Source: the human T2T-CHM13v2.0 reference genome, Homo sapiens. Taken from it: a DNA stretch of 64,000 bases. Within the stretch, counting starts at the first letter, position 1. Each line of letters opens with the position of its first letter. The stretch lies in the NCBI RefSeq assembly GCF_009914755.1, contig NC_060926.1; one strand, 5' to 3'. Below are positions 2,760 to 57,034 of this stretch, in pieces. Below the pieces are notes generated by a model. The model was not told the origin of the DNA, ran no database searches, and saw only the letters and a list, made by a program, of their open reading frames with translations. A program made the position numbers and the translations under genes.

Positions 2760-3070
2760 AGCCGGGTGCTATGGCTCATGCCTGTAATCTCAGCACTTTG
2801 GGAGGCCGAGGAGGGTGGATCACCTGAGGTCAGGAGTTCAGGACCAGCCTTGCCAACATGGTGAATTTCCAGCTCTACTAAAAAACACAAAAATTAGCTG
2901 GGCATGGTCGCAGACACCTGTAATCTCAGCTACTAGGGAGGCTGAGACAGGAGAATTGCTTGAACCCGGCAGGAGGTACAGTGAGCCGAGATCGTGCCAT
3001 TGCACTCCAGCCTGGGTGAGAAGAGCGAAACTTCGTCTTGGGGAGAAAAAAAAAAAAAAGCAACAAAAAC
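2760..3070 (+). mobile_element. AluS (Sq/Sp-like), full length
   Basis: Dimeric Alu with central A-rich linker and A tail; flanking direct repeat 'aaaaaatgaggca' (TSD). Confidence 0.95.
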
Positions 3071-4199
3071 AAAAAATGAGGCAACTATTCAATCCCACAA
3101 TGATATATACAAAAACCCACTAAAAATGTAAACAGATTATTCATCTCTGAATAACATTTATATTTTAATGATTTTATAAACACTAAAAATGTAGTAAACA
3201 AACATAAGCTAAAAATAAGTTTTGGAAAGGTAATTGCATGTATGGCTGGGAGGGATAGTATCAGAAAGTTGAATATCGATCTGCCATAGTAAAATTCAAT
3301 GGACAATGTCTAAGACTGAAAAAGAAGTCAGGAACCAGTGGTATAAACAAGTGGTTTTGCAGTATGTGGTAATTACCAAGAAAACAAAATAGCTTAAATA
3401 TTTGAAAATTGTTTGATATAAAATTATGTAACAATGACATACATTTTTAAGATTGATGCACATTTTCTACTTAATAGATGTAAAAAATTGGAAATAGTCA
3501 TAAAATTAACACCAAAGAATGAATGTGAGTATATATATCTGGCAACATTGATTCCCATATGCAGAATATTAACACACAAAAAAGATGTATTTATACAGCT
3601 CATCCACTTCTCTTAGATTTTCATGGATAAAACAGACCAAAGAAAATAAGAATATAATTAATCTGAATAATATGTTCTGTTGCTTTGATATCATAGATGT
3701 GTGTATGCATATGAGTTTGTGTATGTGTATAAATAAATTCAATCTACCATGTTTGTTTTTGGTACTTCACTAAAAATTAAATTTTCTTATAAACAATGAT
3801 GACACTAATATTGATAACATTATGCAGTAGAATGTGTAGTGCTTATAGTTCCTAATCACAATGAAATGAAAATTTCAACATATTATGTAACTAGATAAGA
3901 AAAAATCTCCTTGCTAACTTTTAAATTAAAAAATATAATATTACAGCTTTAAGTTATATGCAATAATGAATTCATTTTGCTCTTAACTTCTAATAGAGAA
4001 CTTGTATTAATAATTCTAGGGTTTACAAATATTTTATCCCAGCAATTTGACAATATTATTGCTTCATTTTGCTTATAGGTGCTGATGAAGAATTTGCCAT
4101 CAGTATGGTGCTTTGGTTGTGCCTCACTCAATTAACTTAGGTCATTTTTTTTCTGCTTGGTTTTGTGATTTTCTTTCCCTATACTCCTATACTTTCACT

Positions 4200-4800: not shown

Positions 4801-5916
4801 GTATTGTTTGAATGTTTGTAAGTTTTCACTATGACTTCATCCTCAGGGAGTGTTGTGCTACTGCCTCAACACCCTGGCTACCCAACTTCCACCCAATCCT
4901 GTGGTTGGATTGCATGTAACACATTCTACAAACACTGTGCAGAGAGTGTCTGCTGAGCTTCTGCAGGTTCTCCTGGGATTTCACTAGTCCCGACCATTAT
5001 TTACATTTATTTCTGGGCAAGTAGAACCCCATATCCCAGTTGTAGCATAATTTTAGATTCATTACAAATATGTAACCAGCTTTGAATCTTGCTTACTGAA
5101 AGAAAACAAGAACAAAGGTCAACCTTTGCTTGTTTGGGTTTGTGGGCACATTTTTTCTGTTTTTCTATTCCTCTTTCACTGAGGAGAGCAAACCCAACAT
5201 TTGTCATGCTCTCAGTTGTAGCTCTCTGCCTGTGCAGCCCAAGGCAATGTCGGCTTTCCTCTGAGGCATTAAAAGCACAGACACTACTCAGTAAGGGCTC
5301 TATATAATTGTCCTATAACCTTCATCCCCTGAAGCATTAGCTTATGAGCATGCTGCTCAGGATTTCAGCTCCCTCTTTGATTTCCGTAGTTAAAAATAGC
5401 TCTCCCTTCCTTTTTAGCTCAGCAATTAGGTTTTTTTAAAACTGTTTTTTATCTGTTTTGTATACAATTATTTATAATAGTCATAAATTGAAATAACCTA
5501 AATTTTCATTGATAGGTGAGTGAACAATAAACTCTGTTTTGTTCATATAGCAAAATATTTTACATAGGTTAAATGTATTTACATAAGTCTGTATGTATCA
5601 ATAAAGAAAAAATAATATTTCAAAGATACACAACGTAGCTGCAAAAGAATAGGTACAGTATGGCATTAAATATGAAAGATACATACAACAATGTGATATT
5701 TTATAGGTACATGAATATCAAATCAATTGTGAAATCTATTTTCAGTAAGTGTCGACATTCCTCTCAGAAATTAGATAAGCTTGGAAAGATGAGGAAATGG
5801 CCATGCTGTGGTCGTTATGGTGGCCTTTACCTCATTTTATAACATATTCATAAAATAAAATGATACAAGCTAATACAAACAAATAGGACTTATCAAATCT
5901 ATCACTCAATATTCAA

Positions 5917-12785: not shown

Positions 12786-13122
<337 letters not shown>

Positions 13123-13774: not shown

Positions 13775-14215
<441 letters not shown>

Positions 14216-33121: not shown

Positions 33122-34089
33122 GATTTGAAAGTGAATATGACAGACTCCAAAGTTAGTATCTTTCCATGATGTCAATTTGCCTCTCTTTTTATGTCAGTCC
33201 TCTGTAATTTGAGTCTTGTATCTGCAACATACAAAATATATGACCCTAGTAAATATTCTTAACAAAATATTAATAACAACCTACTTCACAGAAGGGCTTC
33301 TTAGAAAAAAAAATTAGCCTCAACACTATAAGTAAAATCAACACATAAAGTTTTATAAAAATGTATTTTAAGTGTATTTTAAATCCCCCCACCCCCACCA
33401 CACACAAAAAATATTATTATCTTGTTATCAGTTACAATGCCCTAGGGCTCACTTTGAGATCTGAGTTTTTCATTAACAAATTTAGGCCCATACTGTTTAT
33501 TTCTTTAGAGGCCAATTTCTTTATAAATTGCACAGGCGTATTTTATCCTATTGTAGATTTCCTTTTAAAATTTTTCTTATTAATATCGGGTGAAGAATAT
33601 ATACAAAAGAATGTTTATTGCAAGGAGAAAATAAATCAGGTTTCTCTGATATTCCATATTTATCTGTGGTGTGGTTTTGCGGGGAGAAGAAAAAATACTG
33701 CTTTCTATAATAACTTGCTTCTCACAGCTTTCATACCATTTATTCCTCATAAGAAGAAACCTTATTGAAAGTTACCATAGGCACAGGAAAATACTCAGAT
33801 CTTATTAAAATTTCCAATATTACATCTCCAGGATTTGTTTTGTAAAAAGTCTCCACTGACAAATCATTTCAAAAATGTAAACACATTTGATGTACTGAAG
33901 CTCTACACTGCAGTCATTTCTGCAGGATTAGCCAAGTACTGCTCGGTATCCTGCTTTATTAAAACTTCATTCCAAACAGATAAAGCAGAGAAAGAAGTAG
34001 AGGTTAGGGGAGAAGCCATTCCAATGAATTTACATAGCAACGATCATCTTAGAAAGGCCTCTGAATTGTATAGCACTTTGAAGTTCAAA

Positions 34090-34270
34090 TAACATTATTT
34101 TTGCATCTCATTTTATTCTCTCAACAAACCCATGAATTGAGAATAAACAATTATTCTATTTATTTAATTGTGTGGTGGAAATTAAAGTCCATTGGGGATA
34201 AGCAACACACCAAGGGTCCTATATCTAGTAAATGGCATAGCCAGAATTAAATTCTGGGTACCCCATCCTC
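34090..34270 (-). mobile_element. MIR fragment
   Basis: 'catctcattttattctctcaacaaacccatga...ctagtaaatggcatagccagaatt'. Confidence 0.6.
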
Positions 34271-35213
34271 ACCCAAACCTTTAGAATATGGGCAGGGGTC
34301 AGGTCAAATTTATCTAAAAAAGCGAGGGCATTTATGAGGTAATGAGGGAAATTGTTCAAGAAAGGAAAGAGAAAATATGGTGCACAGGACCAGAGGGAAA
34401 GAATGTTGTTTGCAGTATTACCAGTATGGGAGCATAGTTAAATTATTTGCATTTTGTTGGTTAAGTGCATGTGAAGAAGGAGATAGCAAGAGATTCTGCT
34501 AAGGAAACTAATGTTGGCAAGTGGCCTATAAACCAGGCTAAGTGCAAGGATTTCTTTTTCTCTTAAAGATAATGGAAAGCTATTGAGAACGCAGTTAAAA
34601 GAAAAGATTACATTTTAATCTTGAGAAGGACATTTTGACCCATGTACAGAATGGCTAGCATAAAGCTAAAACAGACGCAAGCAGAACAATGAGAATGTTA
34701 TAGAAACAATGCAGTTGAAAGATAATGATGAGGATGTTTACAACATGAAAATGAATTGATAGATGAGAAAGCTAGAACAATTTTTGAAATGTGAGAACTT
34801 ACTAATAAACAAGAGGCTAGAGATGAGGGTTCAGATACATACATCAGGGTTTAATTAATGTAAGCCATATAACAGTGCATTGAGAGAAGCTAGAGAGTAT
34901 ACCAAAATAAACAAGAAACCTCCTATTGAGAATGTTTCCAAATTAAAGCCCTGTTTAAAAGTTTTAGCACATCTCTAGACATATTTTCAATAATGTGAAA
35001 GATCTGAAAACCACTTCTGAAGAATGATTAAAATTAAGAGTGCTTTCTTATAATATAGGATCTCATAGACCGTTTAAAAACTATTAGATTGAGGTAAAAT
35101 ATTTTTTCCAGTTGAACAAATGGTCAGACTCTGCAGATAAAAAAAACTTTAAGTCAACATAAGGATTTCAAATTTATTTCACAGATTGGTGAACTTGCTC
35201 ATCTTAGAGGTAT

Positions 35214-35808
35214 TTTTGATGAAAAGAGTCAAAGTCTGTAAAATAAAATATTTGAAGAGACTTATTCTGAGCCAAGTATGAGTGATCCTGGTCTGTGACA
35301 CAGCCCTCAGGAGGTCCTGAAAACATGTGCCAAGGTGGTCGAGGTGCAGCTTCGCTTTATACATTTTAGGGAGACGTAAGACTTGAATCAAATACATTTA
35401 AGAAATACATTGGTTTGGTCCAGAAAGGCAGGACAACTCCTAAGTGGGGGTGGGGGTGGGGATCCAGCTTACAGGTAGATTTAAAAATTGTCTGATTGAC
35501 AATTGGTTAAATTTATCTAAAGACCTGGGATCAGTAGAAATGAATGTCTGGGTTAAGATAAAGGATTGTGGAGACGCAAGTTCTTATTTGCAGAGGAAGC
35601 CTTCAGGTTCTAGGCTTCAGAGAGAATAGATTGTAAAATGTTTCTTATCAGGCTTGAAGTCTGTGTTGATGTTAATACTGGAGAGATGTAATGACGCATG
35701 TCTGGCCCCCACTTTTCATGATGGCCTGAACCAGTCTCTTAGGTTAAATTTTAAAGGAGCCCTGGCTGAGGAGGAAGTTCTTTCAGATGGTTTTGTTTTT
35801 GGTTTACA
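35214..35808 (-). mobile_element. MER4B/MER4D-like solo LTR
   Basis: 'gaaaagagtcaaagtctgtaaaa...gacacagccctcaggaggtcctgaaaacatgtgcc...ttttggtttaca'; 4-bp TSD gtat / gtat. Confidence 0.85.
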
Positions 35809-36215
35809 GTATCCAGAGGTGCAATTCTATGGAACTGATTCCTGCAACGTGTGAGAGTTTGAATTATAAATCTACCTCTTAATTCTGGCATTATTTAATT
35901 TCAGTTATCATGAACATTTTTGGAGAGCCATTGGGCCTAATGAAACATTTAAAAAACTCAAGCTGAGGTAAAGAAATTATGGTCAAATCTTTGTTTCCTC
36001 CAGTAGCAGCCACACAGCGCTACCTTTCTCCATCATGCTTATGAATTGGCAAAAAGAGGTATGGAGCAGTTCCCAGCACAAATTTTGTTTTGTTTTGTTT
36101 TATAGGTTTTGCTTCCCTAGTCCACTAATTATAGACTTGAAATTATACTTTACAGCAATGTTGTAGTGGAAAACTGTAGACCATTCCTTTGTTTTATTTC
36201 TGTGAGCAAACTTGT

Positions 36216-36743
36216 TTTTTAATCTGAATTCCAATAAATAATTATCATCATCTCATGAATCCTGCTGTTGCATTTTGTTAGGGAGTTTCTGGAGGTCTTG
36301 ATTGAAAATTATAATTGGTTAATAGAATTTGACTTACTAGTTCAAGTTTGTTGTGGGTAGGGAAATTTTGGATTATATTGAACCATAATCTTTCTTTCAG
36401 TTCCATTTCAACCAAACTACTCTGGCCCTGATTGTTTTGCTATTTGGATTAGTCTGATTTTCTTTGTTCATCTTGACAGGGTAGACGCTATAAGAAACTC
36501 CTCTAGCCTGATACGTATTGAGAGGTACCATTTGCTTGGTCTTTCCCAGACTGAACAAAATTCAGAAAGATTATGGTTCAATGTAATCCAAAATTTCCCT
36601 ACCCACAACAAACTTGAACTAGTAAGTCAAATTCTGTTAACCAATTATAATTTTCAATCAAGACCTCCAGAAACTCCCTAACAAAATGCAACAGCAGGAT
36701 TCATGAGATGATGATAATTATTTATTGGAATTCAGATTAAAAA
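36216..36743. repeat. Long near-perfect inverted repeat (180-bp arms, 168-bp spacer)
   Basis: 36216-36395 is the reverse complement of 36564-36743 with only two mismatches (36323T:36636G, 36376T:36583G), checked base by base. Confidence 0.98.
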
Positions 36744-38831
36744 GCTTAGCATTTCCAGCTGTACTATGATTACTCTGATTCCAAAGGTTCGTAATCACTA
36801 CCAGTGGACATAGGCAATTCTACTCTTTCAGAAAACTATTTTAAAAAATAAAAAATGTAACTAAAAACAAACAAATACATTAGAAAATAACATTAGGAGA
36901 ATCATTATTCTGGGAATATATTCACAGGGTATTTGGGTGCGTACTCTGGGTATTTGTTTCTCTGCCATATCTGTCTCTAGCAGCACGTCACTGGTTTCAT
37001 TCTGAAGAATATATATTTTTTTCAATATATGTTGATTTTTGAATTTTTTAAATTTAAATTGCCAGTAACTTTTTAAAATATAGAAAAGATGAAAGAGGGT
37101 AAGCAACTTGCTGACATACAGCTCATGAGCTGATTTTCTCCGAAGATTTTTCAGCCAGCTGGAACTCAGGATCATTGTATGCCCCACACCTGATCCTTGT
37201 GCAGTCTTGAGCACAGTGGCTCTTCGCTGGTGTTGTAATGGGGAAAAGATTCACTAAAATAGATCAGAGTGAAAGAGAAGGACTTAAAAATGATACTAAA
37301 CTGTTTTTGTCTTTTAATTTCTTCATTTGACCCTGCTCATTTTAAAACTTTGAACTATAAAGAGTCTTCAATAACGATCACACAGGTGCTTATGTTAGCA
37401 TTTTGAAGCCTAAAACAAGGCAAGAGTCATCATCTCTTTAACTATCTACATGGATAATCAGCACAATTGAAGTGTGTGTCTTTCAAAGGCAAAAATCATT
37501 TCTGGCTTCACCTATAACTCAGTTTTCTCAGGTAGGTGAGTATCAAAGCCCGCTCAACAAATGAATTTGTGATAAAATGTAAGAAGTTGCCACATGGCAA
37601 TACTGAAAAAAGGTGACTCTTCTAGTATGTCTGGTAATCTTTGCTAGACAAAAAAATTCTCTAAACATTGTTTCTATGTGTCTCTCTCACTTATATGTTA
37701 TTATACCTAGTACAACTCTGAAAAATGTGTGAAAACACTAGATCATTAAATTCATGAAGCATGAGACTTCTGATACAGAGAGTTTAAAGGTTCAGCAAAA
37801 TCAGCACTTTCTTGTTAACTAGTTTACCTTGATTTGATTTCTCTGCACCTCACCCAATCAGTACAATGTTAATATCAATACCTACATGATATAGTTGTTA
37901 AATGGTATTAATTACTATGTATATGTCAAATATTTACAAATTATCTGTCAAATATTAATCATTTCATGAATATAATTATAACTACTACTATTACTAGTAG
38001 TATGTGGCATAACATTTTAGATTATAAGCTTCGAAAGCAGAGTACTTGGCTGAATGTTGCCACTTACTAGCTGGTTACATTGACTAGTGATGGCATTATC
38101 TCAATTCTTCTTTTTAAATAATTTGTCTCCAAGACGGTCCCTCAAATTATTTCTTAAGTACATTAAAGGTGTATACTCTTCTTGTAAAGAAAAAAATGTT
38201 TCTCCACTATTTTTTCAAAGACAATACTTCCTAATCTCTTCATCAAAGAAATTTCTTAGAGTTTTTAGAGTTTTATTTACCTGGTTGGACAATGGGTTTA
38301 ACAATAGTACTGGTTTCAAGGTTTTAGATATGAAGATATGCTTAAATACTTAACAGGCTGACAAAAATATAGTGTTAATCAGAGTAGCCCGTAATCTCAT
38401 TGCTACACTGGCCAGAATGTGGTTTCCACTTCAATCTGTTCTGCTTATGAAAAGAAAAAAGAATTAAGTATTTCAAAATAACCTTAAAATACTGTTCTTT
38501 GAATTAGTTTTTAATACTAACCCTTAATCGTATTGCTTTAAAGTAAATTAAGAAAGAATTCTGCATTGGAGGAAATGATTTATTTCCATTGCTATAACTT
38601 CTAGGGATTTGTTTAATAACCAGATCAGCTAAGTTGTGTTTATGTATGCCTACGTTAAATCCTAGAACATTTGTACATTCTCTCTCATGGAATCCTTCAT
38701 AAAGAGTAATTTCCCTCACAGCCTAAATAAGGTGACAGTTGGCAAATTATAAGAATCCATTACTTAAAAATGCATTCTATCAATAGAAAAAATATATGCC
38801 AAGCTAAAATAATAATATTATTAATAGTTCA

Positions 38832-39200
<369 letters not shown>

Positions 39201-45058: not shown

Positions 45059-45375
<317 letters not shown>

Positions 45376-45987: not shown

Positions 45988-46296
45988 GTCTTTTTTTGTT
46001 TGTTTGGGGTTTTATTATTATTATTATTGAAATGGGATTTTACTCTGTCACCTAGATGGTCTCGGCTCATTGTGATAACCTCCACTTCTTGGGCTCAAGC
46101 GACTTTCCCTACTCAGCCTTACCAGTAGCTGGGGCCACAAGCATGCATCACCAAGACGGGCTAATTTTTGTAGAGACGGGGTTTCTCCATGTTGCCCAGG
46201 ATTGTCTTGAACTCCTGGATTCAAGCGATCCACCTGCTTTGACCTCCCAAATTGCTGAGATTACAGCACTTATCTTACCAGCTACCACGCCTGGCC
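45988..46296 (-). mobile_element. AluJ-like, diverged
   Basis: Reverse-complement Alu with small indels; 12-bp TSD agattgtccctt at 45976 and 46298. Confidence 0.88.
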
Positions 46297-53171: not shown

Positions 53172-53303
53172 TGCTAAATGCAGTGGCTCACACCTGTAAT
53201 TCAAGGTACGTGGGAAGCTGAAATGAAAGGAACACTTGATCCTGGGAGTTTAAGACCAGCCTAGGCAACATAATAAGACCCTGTCTCAAAAAATAAAATA
53301 AAA
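53172..53303 (+). mobile_element. FLAM / Alu left monomer
   Basis: 'gcagtggctcacacctgtaat...gagtttaagaccagcctaggcaacataataagaccctgtctc' and A tail. Confidence 0.85.
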
Positions 53304-53689
53304 AGAAATAGTATGATTCAAAGATGCAAGAACAAGTTCAAATGTCCCCTCTCTGTGAAGACTTTGTTAAAGCAGTAGAGAACCAGAACTATCTGCCCTC
53401 ACATAGCTTGCTATGTTAATAAGTCTTTATTATTCCTTGTTTTCTTTAGTATAATTTTACTGCTCCAAGAGACTCTTGAATAAGAAAATAACTTGAAATA
53501 TTTATAGGAATTTTCTGAAAGACTCAGCAACTCTTTAATAGGAAGATTCAGCAGACCTCCCAATGCTATGTACCTCTTGGCCTCAGAAGTTTGCCTTGTT
53601 CTCCCAAATCATAAACTGCTAAATTATGATACTTCCCAAACCTAACCAACTCTCACAATAAAACACTTACCTTAAACTAGACTTCAAAA

Positions 53690-56704: not shown

Positions 56705-57034
<330 letters not shown>

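What the first reader, a model, noticed from the sequence alone, without database searches (positions are those of the whole stretch)
36216..36743. Near-perfect 180-bp inverted repeat in apparently non-TE sequence (long hairpin / invertible cassette)
Seen: arms 36216-36395 and 36564-36743 are reverse complements at 178/180 positions around a 168-bp spacer. I recognise no TE family in the arms and see no TSD. Every TE nearby is far more diverged, so the structure is either very young or kept homogeneous by arm-to-arm conversion. Both mismatches are T:G on the + strand, so a + strand RNA would form an unbroken 180-bp duplex with G-U wobbles, while a - strand RNA would carry two A:C mismatches (preferred ADAR sites). 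Established: closely spaced, highly identical inverted repeats drive recurrent spacer inversion and hairpin-related breakage, and long dsRNA is a substrate for ADAR, Dicer and MDA5/PKR. Inference: this is a candidate polymorphic micro-inversion and/or an unannotated hairpin RNA. Two mismatches are too few to claim selection for wobble pairs.
Basis: partly seen in the sequence, partly recalled or inferred. Interest (0 to 1): 0.85.

Follow-up and report, generated by a model that had tools for sequence, protein, structure and literature searches.

The report
Young single-copy inverted duplication, human chr2
A 180-base stretch of unique human DNA was copied backwards 168 bases away, most likely by a one-off replication or repair slip; it is real and locally unusual, but nothing found here shows that it does anything.

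Summary
Arms 36216-36395 and 36564-36743 are reverse complements at 178 of 180 positions, around a 168-nt spacer. The boundaries are sharp. Both mismatches are T opposite G on the + strand.

It is not a recognisable transposon. The arms, the spacer and the left flank match only themselves in the 3.1-Gb assembly. No target-site duplication of 2-10 bp is present. No Rfam family matches.

It is a local outlier. Of 85 inverted pairs in 264 kb, it alone reaches 90% identity; the next best is 86.8%.

The best reading is a single-step local inverted duplication, made by replication template switching or fold-back repair synthesis, and selectively neutral. The 1.1% arm divergence suggests roughly 6-11 My (interval 0.7-40 My). 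It could be younger if error-prone synthesis introduced the mismatches.

The longest uninterrupted identity is 107 bp, and the spacer is long. No gene is annotated in the window, and the stem is shorter than the 300-bp MDA5 class.

Which arm is the copy, and whether other humans or apes carry the structure, need other genomes.

The parts
36216..36395 (+). Left arm of the inverted repeat (180 nt, 29% G+C, no CpG)
   Evidence: matches only itself and the right arm in the whole assembly
36396..36563 (.). Spacer (168 nt, 40% G+C, 2 CpG), single-copy, no internal symmetry beyond chance
   Evidence: only a self match at E<=10; spacer halves score 17 against a shuffle maximum of 25; 14 of 200 shuffles reach it
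36564..36743 (-). Right arm, reverse complement of the left arm at 178/180 positions
36323..36323 (+). Mismatch 1: T here opposite G at 36636 (G.U in a + strand RNA, A:C in a - strand RNA); not at a CpG
36376..36376 (+). Mismatch 2: T here opposite G at 36583; not at a CpG
35800..36215 (.). Left flank, single-copy; ends in a T run that continues into the arm (T6 at 36215-36220); no TSD with the right flank
36744..37400 (.). Right flank: unique apart from three weak matches (72-81%) to 36875-37040

Best explanation
This is a real, single-locus inverted duplication of ordinary unique intergenic DNA. During replication or break repair, a growing 3' end left its template and annealed, probably at a few bases of microhomology, about 170 nt away on the complementary or its own nascent strand. 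It copied 180 nt in reverse-complement orientation and then returned to the original template. This is a long version of the four-point template-switch mutation, or equivalently fold-back or MMBIR-type synthesis.

The result is arm, unique spacer, inverted arm in one step. There are no target-site duplications and no other copies in the genome. Since then, or already during error-prone copying, two transitions have accumulated.

Shown: the structure, its sharp ends, its single-copy status, the lack of a TSD, and its outlier identity. Inferred: the mechanism, the age (about 6-11 My if the mismatches are post-event), and neutrality.
For: - Arms are 178/180 complementary with sharp boundaries and no gapped extension.
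- Arm, spacer and left flank each match only this locus in the 3.1-Gb assembly. The same tool finds 3,053 candidates for the neighbouring interspersed repeat and picks up 72% matches for the right flank, so it does detect repeats.
- No TSD of 2-10 bp.
- It is the only pair of 85 in 264 kb at >=90% identity.
- The four-point model describes a one-step reverse-complement copy of nearby sequence. Type 1-4-3-2/3-2-1-4 creates an inverted repeat and makes up 31% of high-confidence human-chimp events. Events also occur without a pre-existing repeat (PMC5453318 and PMC10710096, passages).
- BIR/MMBIR synthesis is described as error-prone (PMC4352052, passages), so the two mismatches need not be old.
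- No annotated gene (the hub's table), no Rfam match, no ORF of 45 aa or more, and only 2 CpG in the spacer and none in the arms.
Against: - The copied tract (180 nt) is longer than any in the published great-ape gold-standard set, where the median 2->3 length is 12 and the maximum 128 (PMC7954356, passages). That method looks only near small mutation clusters.
- No ancestral or outgroup sequence was available. The derived state, which arm is the copy, whether sequence was replaced, and any microhomology at the switch points are all unobserved.
- Neutrality rests on absence of evidence: no expression, editing, conservation or population data could be consulted.
- Single-copy status depends on a search that skips very common words and scores only the best candidates (tool caveat). 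No Dfam or RepeatMasker run was possible.
Confidence: 0.65

Rival explanations
1. An older inverted repeat whose arms are kept nearly identical by recurrent arm-to-arm gene conversion (concerted evolution), rather than a recent duplication.
For: Arm identity (98.9%) is far above every other inverted pair in 264 kb. Closely spaced repeats can recombine with short matching tracts; NAHR between alpha-globin genes used fragments under 50 bp (PMC2583991, passages). Template switching between imperfect arms is also described as homogenising them (PMC5453318 passages; PMC8604942, abstract in the listing).
Against: The boundaries are razor sharp, with no decayed homology outside the 180 nt. An old repeat with a converted core would be expected to show diverged extensions. 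The longest uninterrupted identity is 107 bp, below the 134-232 bp range where recombination fell 20-fold. There is no within- versus between-species comparison.
Confidence: 0.1
2. The repeat flanks a polymorphic micro-inversion: recombination between the arms flips the 168-bp spacer, and both orientations segregate in humans. This could hold together with the best explanation for the origin.
For: The geometry is right: inverted arms at 99% identity only 168 bp apart. Inter-strand template switching can also invert a spacer (PMC5453318, passages).
Against: The arms offer at most 107 bp of uninterrupted identity, against a MEPS of 300-500 bp in human meiosis and a 20-fold drop from 232 to 134 bp in mouse cells (PMC2583991, passages). 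Only one haplotype could be examined here. A scan of bacterial and archaeal genome contigs for the junction, in case of contaminating human contigs, found 0 matches, which says nothing either way.
Confidence: 0.08
3. An unannotated hairpin RNA: the locus is transcribed, folds into a 180-bp duplex, and is a substrate for ADAR, Dicer or PKR.
For: Either strand would fold into a 180-bp stem (-339.3 and -331.9 kcal/mol, z about -34). On the + strand the two mismatches become G.U wobbles. Template-switch hairpins have become miRNA genes when they landed in transcribed DNA (PMC10710096, passages).
Against: No gene is annotated in the 64-kb window, and the nearest lncRNA starts about 36 kb downstream (the hub's table). 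No Rfam family matches 34000-39000 except Alu-derived sub-threshold hits elsewhere. The stem (180 bp) and loop (168 nt) are far from the miRNA geometry used in PMC10710096 (stem 30-55 bases) and below the 300-bp class tied to MDA5 (PMC11838218, section 10). [quoted passage not shown] Of 197 long near-perfect human inverted duplicates inside RefSeq transcripts, only 20 passed FPKM 0.01 (PMC7006430, passages). The wobble pattern has P about 0.11 by chance.
Confidence: 0.05
4. A non-autonomous DNA transposon (MITE-like) with 180-bp terminal inverted repeats.
For: Terminal inverted repeats around a short unique core are the anatomy of such elements.
Against: No second copy of arm or spacer exists in the assembly at E<=10. 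No TSD of 2-10 bp. From my own recall and not from any call, DNA transposons ceased activity in the human lineage tens of millions of years ago, which does not fit 1.1% arm divergence. No Dfam or Repbase comparison was possible.
Confidence: 0.03
5. An assembly artefact (a fold-back chimera) in the CHM13 assembly.
For: None from any call. It is considered only because palindromic chimeras occur in long-read libraries (recalled).
Against: The structure needs two junctions and returns to unique, collinear flanking sequence on both sides. The arms differ at two positions, whereas a fold-back copy of one molecule would be identical. A 168-nt unique spacer lies between them. No read-level data could be checked.
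Confidence: 0.02

Closest known systems
Template-switch mutations under the four-point model (Loytynoja & Goldman 2017, PMC5453318; Walker et al. 2021, PMC7954356; Monttinen et al. 2023, PMC10710096)
   Same: A reverse-complement copy of nearby sequence appears in one step, giving a near-perfect inverted repeat with a spacer and sharp ends. It needs no TSD, no other genomic copies and no pre-existing repeat.
   Different: The copied tract is 180 nt, and the far end of the donor lies about 530 nt away. The published great-ape gold-standard events have a median 2->3 length of 12 and a maximum of 128. The derived state could not be shown here for lack of an outgroup.
Replicative complex rearrangements (FoSTeS/MMBIR inverted duplications, DUP-TRP/INV-DUP; PMC4352052, PMC2583991)
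   Same: Template switching to an inverted template during repair-type, error-prone synthesis. This can also explain point differences introduced at birth.
   Different: Those events span kilobases to megabases, are usually seeded by pre-existing inverted repeats, and change gene dosage. This one adds 180 nt in a gene desert.
Inverted Alu or LINE pairs that form long dsRNA or hairpins (PMC11838218, PMC7006430, PMC10164571)
   Same: Closely spaced inverted repeats able to form a long duplex in RNA or single-stranded DNA.
   Different: Those arise from two independent insertions of a repeat family and are typically 80-90% identical (locally 73-87%). Here the arms are unique sequence at 98.9%, made by duplication in place.
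MITEs / DNA transposons with long terminal inverted repeats
   Same: Terminal inverted repeats around a short core.
   Different: There is a single copy in the genome and no TSD.

Membership tests
Template-switch mutation (four-point model) | A tract that is the reverse complement of sequence close by on the same chromosome | tested here: met
   178/180, 168 nt apart
Template-switch mutation (four-point model) | Sharp switch points: homology ends abruptly at both ends of the copied tract | tested here: met
   Gapped alignment returns exactly 180 nt; flanks and spacer halves score within shuffles
Template-switch mutation (four-point model) | Derived state: the ancestor or outgroup lacks the copy and explains the change as one event | not testable with these tools
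   No other primate or human assembly is held; the genome 'has no relatives here'
Template-switch mutation (four-point model) | Copied-tract length within the range described for short-range events | tested here: not met
   180 nt against a median of 12 and a maximum of 128 in the great-ape gold-standard set (PMC7954356, passages). The published range is limited by the method, so this makes the locus a long variant rather than excluding the mechanism
DNA transposon / MITE | Multiple related copies in the genome | tested here: not met
   Only self matches for arm, spacer and whole element at E<=10, with the tool's caveat on very common words
DNA transposon / MITE | Target-site duplication directly flanking the terminal inverted repeats | tested here: not met
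   No identical flanks of 2-10 bp
DNA transposon / MITE | Match of the termini to a curated family consensus (Dfam/Repbase) | not testable with these tools
   No TE library is available
miRNA / hairpin-RNA gene | Match to a described RNA family | tested here: not met
   No Rfam hit over the locus at E<=1 in 34000-39000
miRNA / hairpin-RNA gene | miRNA-like geometry (stem about 35 bp; 30-55 in the criteria of PMC10710096) | tested here: not met
   180-bp stem and 168-nt loop (criteria read)
miRNA / hairpin-RNA gene | Transcription and processing | not testable with these tools
   No expression data; no gene is annotated in the window (the hub's table)
NAHR-mediated invertible segment | Inverted repeats flanking the segment | tested here: met
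NAHR-mediated invertible segment | Uninterrupted homology of at least a minimal efficient processing segment | tested here: not met
   Longest identical block is 107 bp, against a 20-fold loss from 232 to 134 bp and 300-500 bp in human meiosis. Exceptions under 50 bp exist for close repeats (PMC2583991, passages)
NAHR-mediated invertible segment | Both orientations observed | not testable with these tools
   Only one haplotype is available
Long, nearly perfect (MDA5-type) endogenous dsRNA | More than 300 bp and more than 96% paired | tested here: not met
   98.9% paired but only 180 bp (class definition in PMC11838218 section 10, and PMC7006430)

The most novel reading that the evidence does not exclude
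A hominid-lineage template switch that copied 180 nt, longer than any event in the published great-ape gold-standard set (maximum 128). It would have created in one step a 180-bp near-perfect hairpin from unique DNA. That hairpin would be transcribed at low level or in a restricted tissue, would act as a de novo long-hairpin RNA (an ADAR, PKR or Dicer substrate), and would have arms that still exchange sequence or flip the spacer in the population.
Probability: 0.06. Interest if true: 0.6.

Novelty: new member of a known kind. Interest (0 to 1): 0.25.

Why it matters
If the origin proposed here is right, the locus is a clean, unusually long natural example of one-step hairpin creation by template switching. 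It would sit between the short events catalogued in apes (maximum 128 nt) and the kilobase-scale inverted duplications of genomic disorders. It would then be a convenient test case for three questions: how far a polymerase can travel on the wrong template, whether such arms undergo conversion, and how quickly new long duplexes are lost or tolerated. It lies in a gene desert, and no sign of transcription was found in the annotation or the Rfam scan. Its practical importance is therefore small unless population or RNA data show otherwise.

Tried and rejected
- **Transposon reading:** rejected on copy number and on absence of a TSD. TTAA tetramers lie just inside both outer ends (sequence). The repeat runs 3 nt beyond them, and the motif is part of the repeat itself, so I gave it no weight.
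- **Known RNA family:** there is no Rfam match at the locus.
- **Extended or decayed homology outside the arms, or symmetry inside the spacer:** none beyond shuffles.
- **Coding potential:** only three ORFs of 42-44 aa overlap 36100-36860.
- **Independent human copy of the junction among contaminating contigs in bacterial and archaeal genomes:** 0 matches. This is uninformative.
- **Wider base-rate sample:** only 200 kb beyond the window could be fetched.
- **Polarity of the duplication:** I found no interspersed repeat that is interrupted by one arm and would show which arm is the copy. The flanks next to both arms are unique.
- **Short direct or displaced matches at the inner junctions:** a 5-6 nt match is visible. 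I treated it as chance after considering the number of offsets looked at.
- **Wobble bias as a sign of selection:** rejected, P about 0.11.

Full report
**Observation**

The repeat finder reports arms 36216-36395 and 36564-36743, 180 nt each, 99% complementary, with 168 nt between them. A base-by-base comparison gives 178/180. The mismatches are 36323 (T) opposite 36636 (G) and 36376 (T) opposite 36583 (G).

A + strand transcript would therefore carry two G.U wobbles and a - strand transcript two A:C mismatches. The folds agree. The + strand gives -339.3 kcal/mol with an unbroken stem. The - strand gives -331.9 kcal/mol with two single-base interruptions. The z-scores are -34.7 and -33.5 against 100 shuffles each.

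The arms are AT-rich (29% G+C, window 34%) and contain no CpG. Neither mismatch is at a CpG.

**Boundaries**

A gapped local alignment of 35700-37260 against its own reverse complement returns exactly the same 180 nt. The best residual match between the outer flanks scores 25 (shuffle mean 21, maximum 28). The best match between the spacer halves scores 17, and 14 of 200 shuffles reach it. There is no decayed homology outside the arms and no symmetry inside the spacer.

**Local background**

In the window, the other inverted pairs found with arms >=40 nt are 70-85% complementary, and several show the familiar Alu sequence.

I then self-compared 264 kb on the minus strand: the window plus 200 kb fetched to its right. 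There were 85 inverted pairs with arms >=50 nt and spacer <=5 kb. Of these, 21 reach >=80%, 3 reach >=85%, and only this one reaches >=90% (98.9%). The runner-up is 86.8%. Pairs that span tile borders are missed.

**Is it a transposon?**

The whole 3.1-Gb assembly in which the window lies could be searched.

- The arm matches only itself and the other arm.
- The spacer matches only itself at E<=10.
- The left flank 35800-36215 matches only itself.
- The whole element with 66-67 nt of flank on each side gives only the self match and the two arm matches.
- The right flank 36744-37400 is unique, apart from three weak matches (72-81%) to 36875-37040.

The same tool produced 3,053 first-look candidates for the interspersed repeat at 35400-35792. 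Of the 40 it scored, 39 are other places at 81-85% identity. It therefore does see repeat families and weak matches. It warns, however, that very common words are skipped and only the best candidates are scored.

No TSD of 2-10 bp flanks the arms. No Dfam or RepeatMasker library was available, so a match to a very old, highly decayed family cannot be excluded formally. Such a family would not explain arms that are 98.9% identical.

**Other readings of the sequence**

- Rfam (E<=1, 34000-39000) finds nothing at the locus. The only hits are sub-threshold, Alu-type matches at 38834-39000.
- Only three ORFs of 42-44 aa overlap the region.
- No gene is annotated in the window, and the nearest lncRNA begins about 36 kb downstream (the hub's table).

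**Age**

Two differences in 180 nt is 1.11% (Poisson 95% interval 0.13-4.0%). At 1e-9 or 0.5e-9 substitutions per site per year (rates recalled, not from a call), that is 5.6 or 11 My. The outer limits are 0.7-40 My.

The repeat is therefore much younger than the surrounding repeats but need not be very recent. Alternatively, the differences may date from the event itself. BIR/MMBIR-type synthesis is described as error-prone (PMC4352052, passages). In that case the structure could even be a recent polymorphism.

**Mechanism**

The anatomy is a reverse-complement copy of nearby unique sequence, with sharp ends, no TSD and no other copies. This is what template switching during replication or repair produces.

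In the four-point model, a nascent strand leaves its template, copies a nearby stretch in reverse complement and returns. Type 1-4-3-2/3-2-1-4 creates an inverted repeat and made up 31% of the high-confidence human-chimp events (PMC5453318, passages). Such events also occur where no repeat pre-existed, and they have given rise to hairpins that became miRNA genes (PMC10710096, passages).

The difference here is scale. The great-ape gold-standard set has a median copied length of 12 and a maximum of 128 (PMC7954356, passages), against 180 here. That method starts from small mutation clusters and a short surrounding region, so long events may simply escape it. At the other end of the scale are the kilobase-to-megabase inverted duplications ascribed to FoSTeS/MMBIR (PMC2583991 and PMC4352052, passages).

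Fold-back priming at a resected break followed by end joining would give the same product. Snap-back synthesis by polymerase theta is described for short tracts; I saw those papers only as a search listing. I cannot tell these variants apart. Any microhomology used is now inside the arms, and no ancestral sequence is available. The outer ends fall in T/A runs (T6 at 36215-36220). That is compatible with microhomology but is weak evidence.

*Inversion of the spacer by recombination between the arms.*

- The longest uninterrupted identity blocks are 107, 52 and 19 bp.
- In mouse cells, two mismatches that cut uninterrupted homology from 232 to 134 bp lowered intrachromosomal recombination 20-fold.
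- Human meiotic MEPS is put at 300-500 bp, although alpha-globin repeats lying close together recombined with fewer than 50 bp (PMC2583991, passages).

*Hairpin or cruciform fragility.*

- In yeast, lengthening an Alu-pair spacer from 12 to 100 bp lowered recombination 300-fold.
- Lengthening it from 12 to 200 bp lowered gross rearrangements about 20-fold, though long single-stranded regions remove this protection (PMC10164571, passages).

*dsRNA.*

- A genome-wide prediction lists 5,134,754 candidate duplexes. Of these, 31,017 are more than 96% paired, and 2,018 are also longer than 300 bp.
- Of 197 human inverted duplicates longer than 300 bp and above 96% identity inside RefSeq transcripts, only 20 were expressed above FPKM 0.01 (PMC7006430, passages).

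An intergenic 180-bp duplex-former is thus one of a known, mostly silent class. It also lies below the length linked to MDA5. These are priors, not tests. No expression, editing or population data could be consulted here. The supplementary tables of these papers, which might list this locus, were not examined.

**Artefact**

A fold-back chimera would give identical arms and would not return to collinear unique sequence. Here there are two junctions, unique flanks on both sides and two arm differences. Read-level confirmation was not possible.

**Verdict**

This is a real, locally exceptional, single-copy inverted duplication. It is most likely the product of one long template switch or fold-back synthesis event in the ape or human lineage, and most likely neutral. 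It is a new instance of a known kind of mutation, unusually long for the short-range class. It merits a quick look in ape and pangenome alignments but little more unless RNA or population data show activity.

Noticed in passing
window 35280-35792 (the left limit was not determined): A high-copy interspersed repeat lies about 420 nt left of the inverted repeat. 35400-35792 matches 39 other places in the assembly at 81-85% identity, among 40 scored of 3,053 first-look candidates. The similarity probably continues left of 35400 (sequence). The family was not named because no TE library is available.
   Followed up: partly
window 36875-37040: Part of the right flank has weak matches (72-81% identity, 64-166 nt) to three other loci, two on contig 12 and one on contig 23. 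This is possibly an old low-copy repeat, and it does not touch the arms.
   Followed up: no
window 38834-39000: Sub-threshold Rfam hits typical of Alu-derived sequence: Metazoa_SRP 32.2 bits against a gathering score of 70, and mir-1285 35.6 bits against 56. They lie inside a stretch that NCBI masks as repeat (38777-39165).
   Followed up: no
window 12786-13043 with 13904-14159; 53180-53311 with 56897-57026; 45118-45186 with 46162-46230: Other inverted pairs in the window, 73-85% complementary with spacers of about 0.9-3.8 kb. The printed arms of three of them show the Alu sequence. They serve as the local background for ordinary inverted repeats.
   Followed up: partly
L025 (G000:C2:82520001-82530000), e.g. 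2935-3229 with 5342-5634: A 10-kb tile 120 kb right of the window holds a cluster of inverted pairs at 81-87% identity, including the runner-up of the whole 264-kb sample (295 nt, 86.8%, spacer 2,112). These are probably inverted interspersed repeats; I did not examine them.
   Followed up: no
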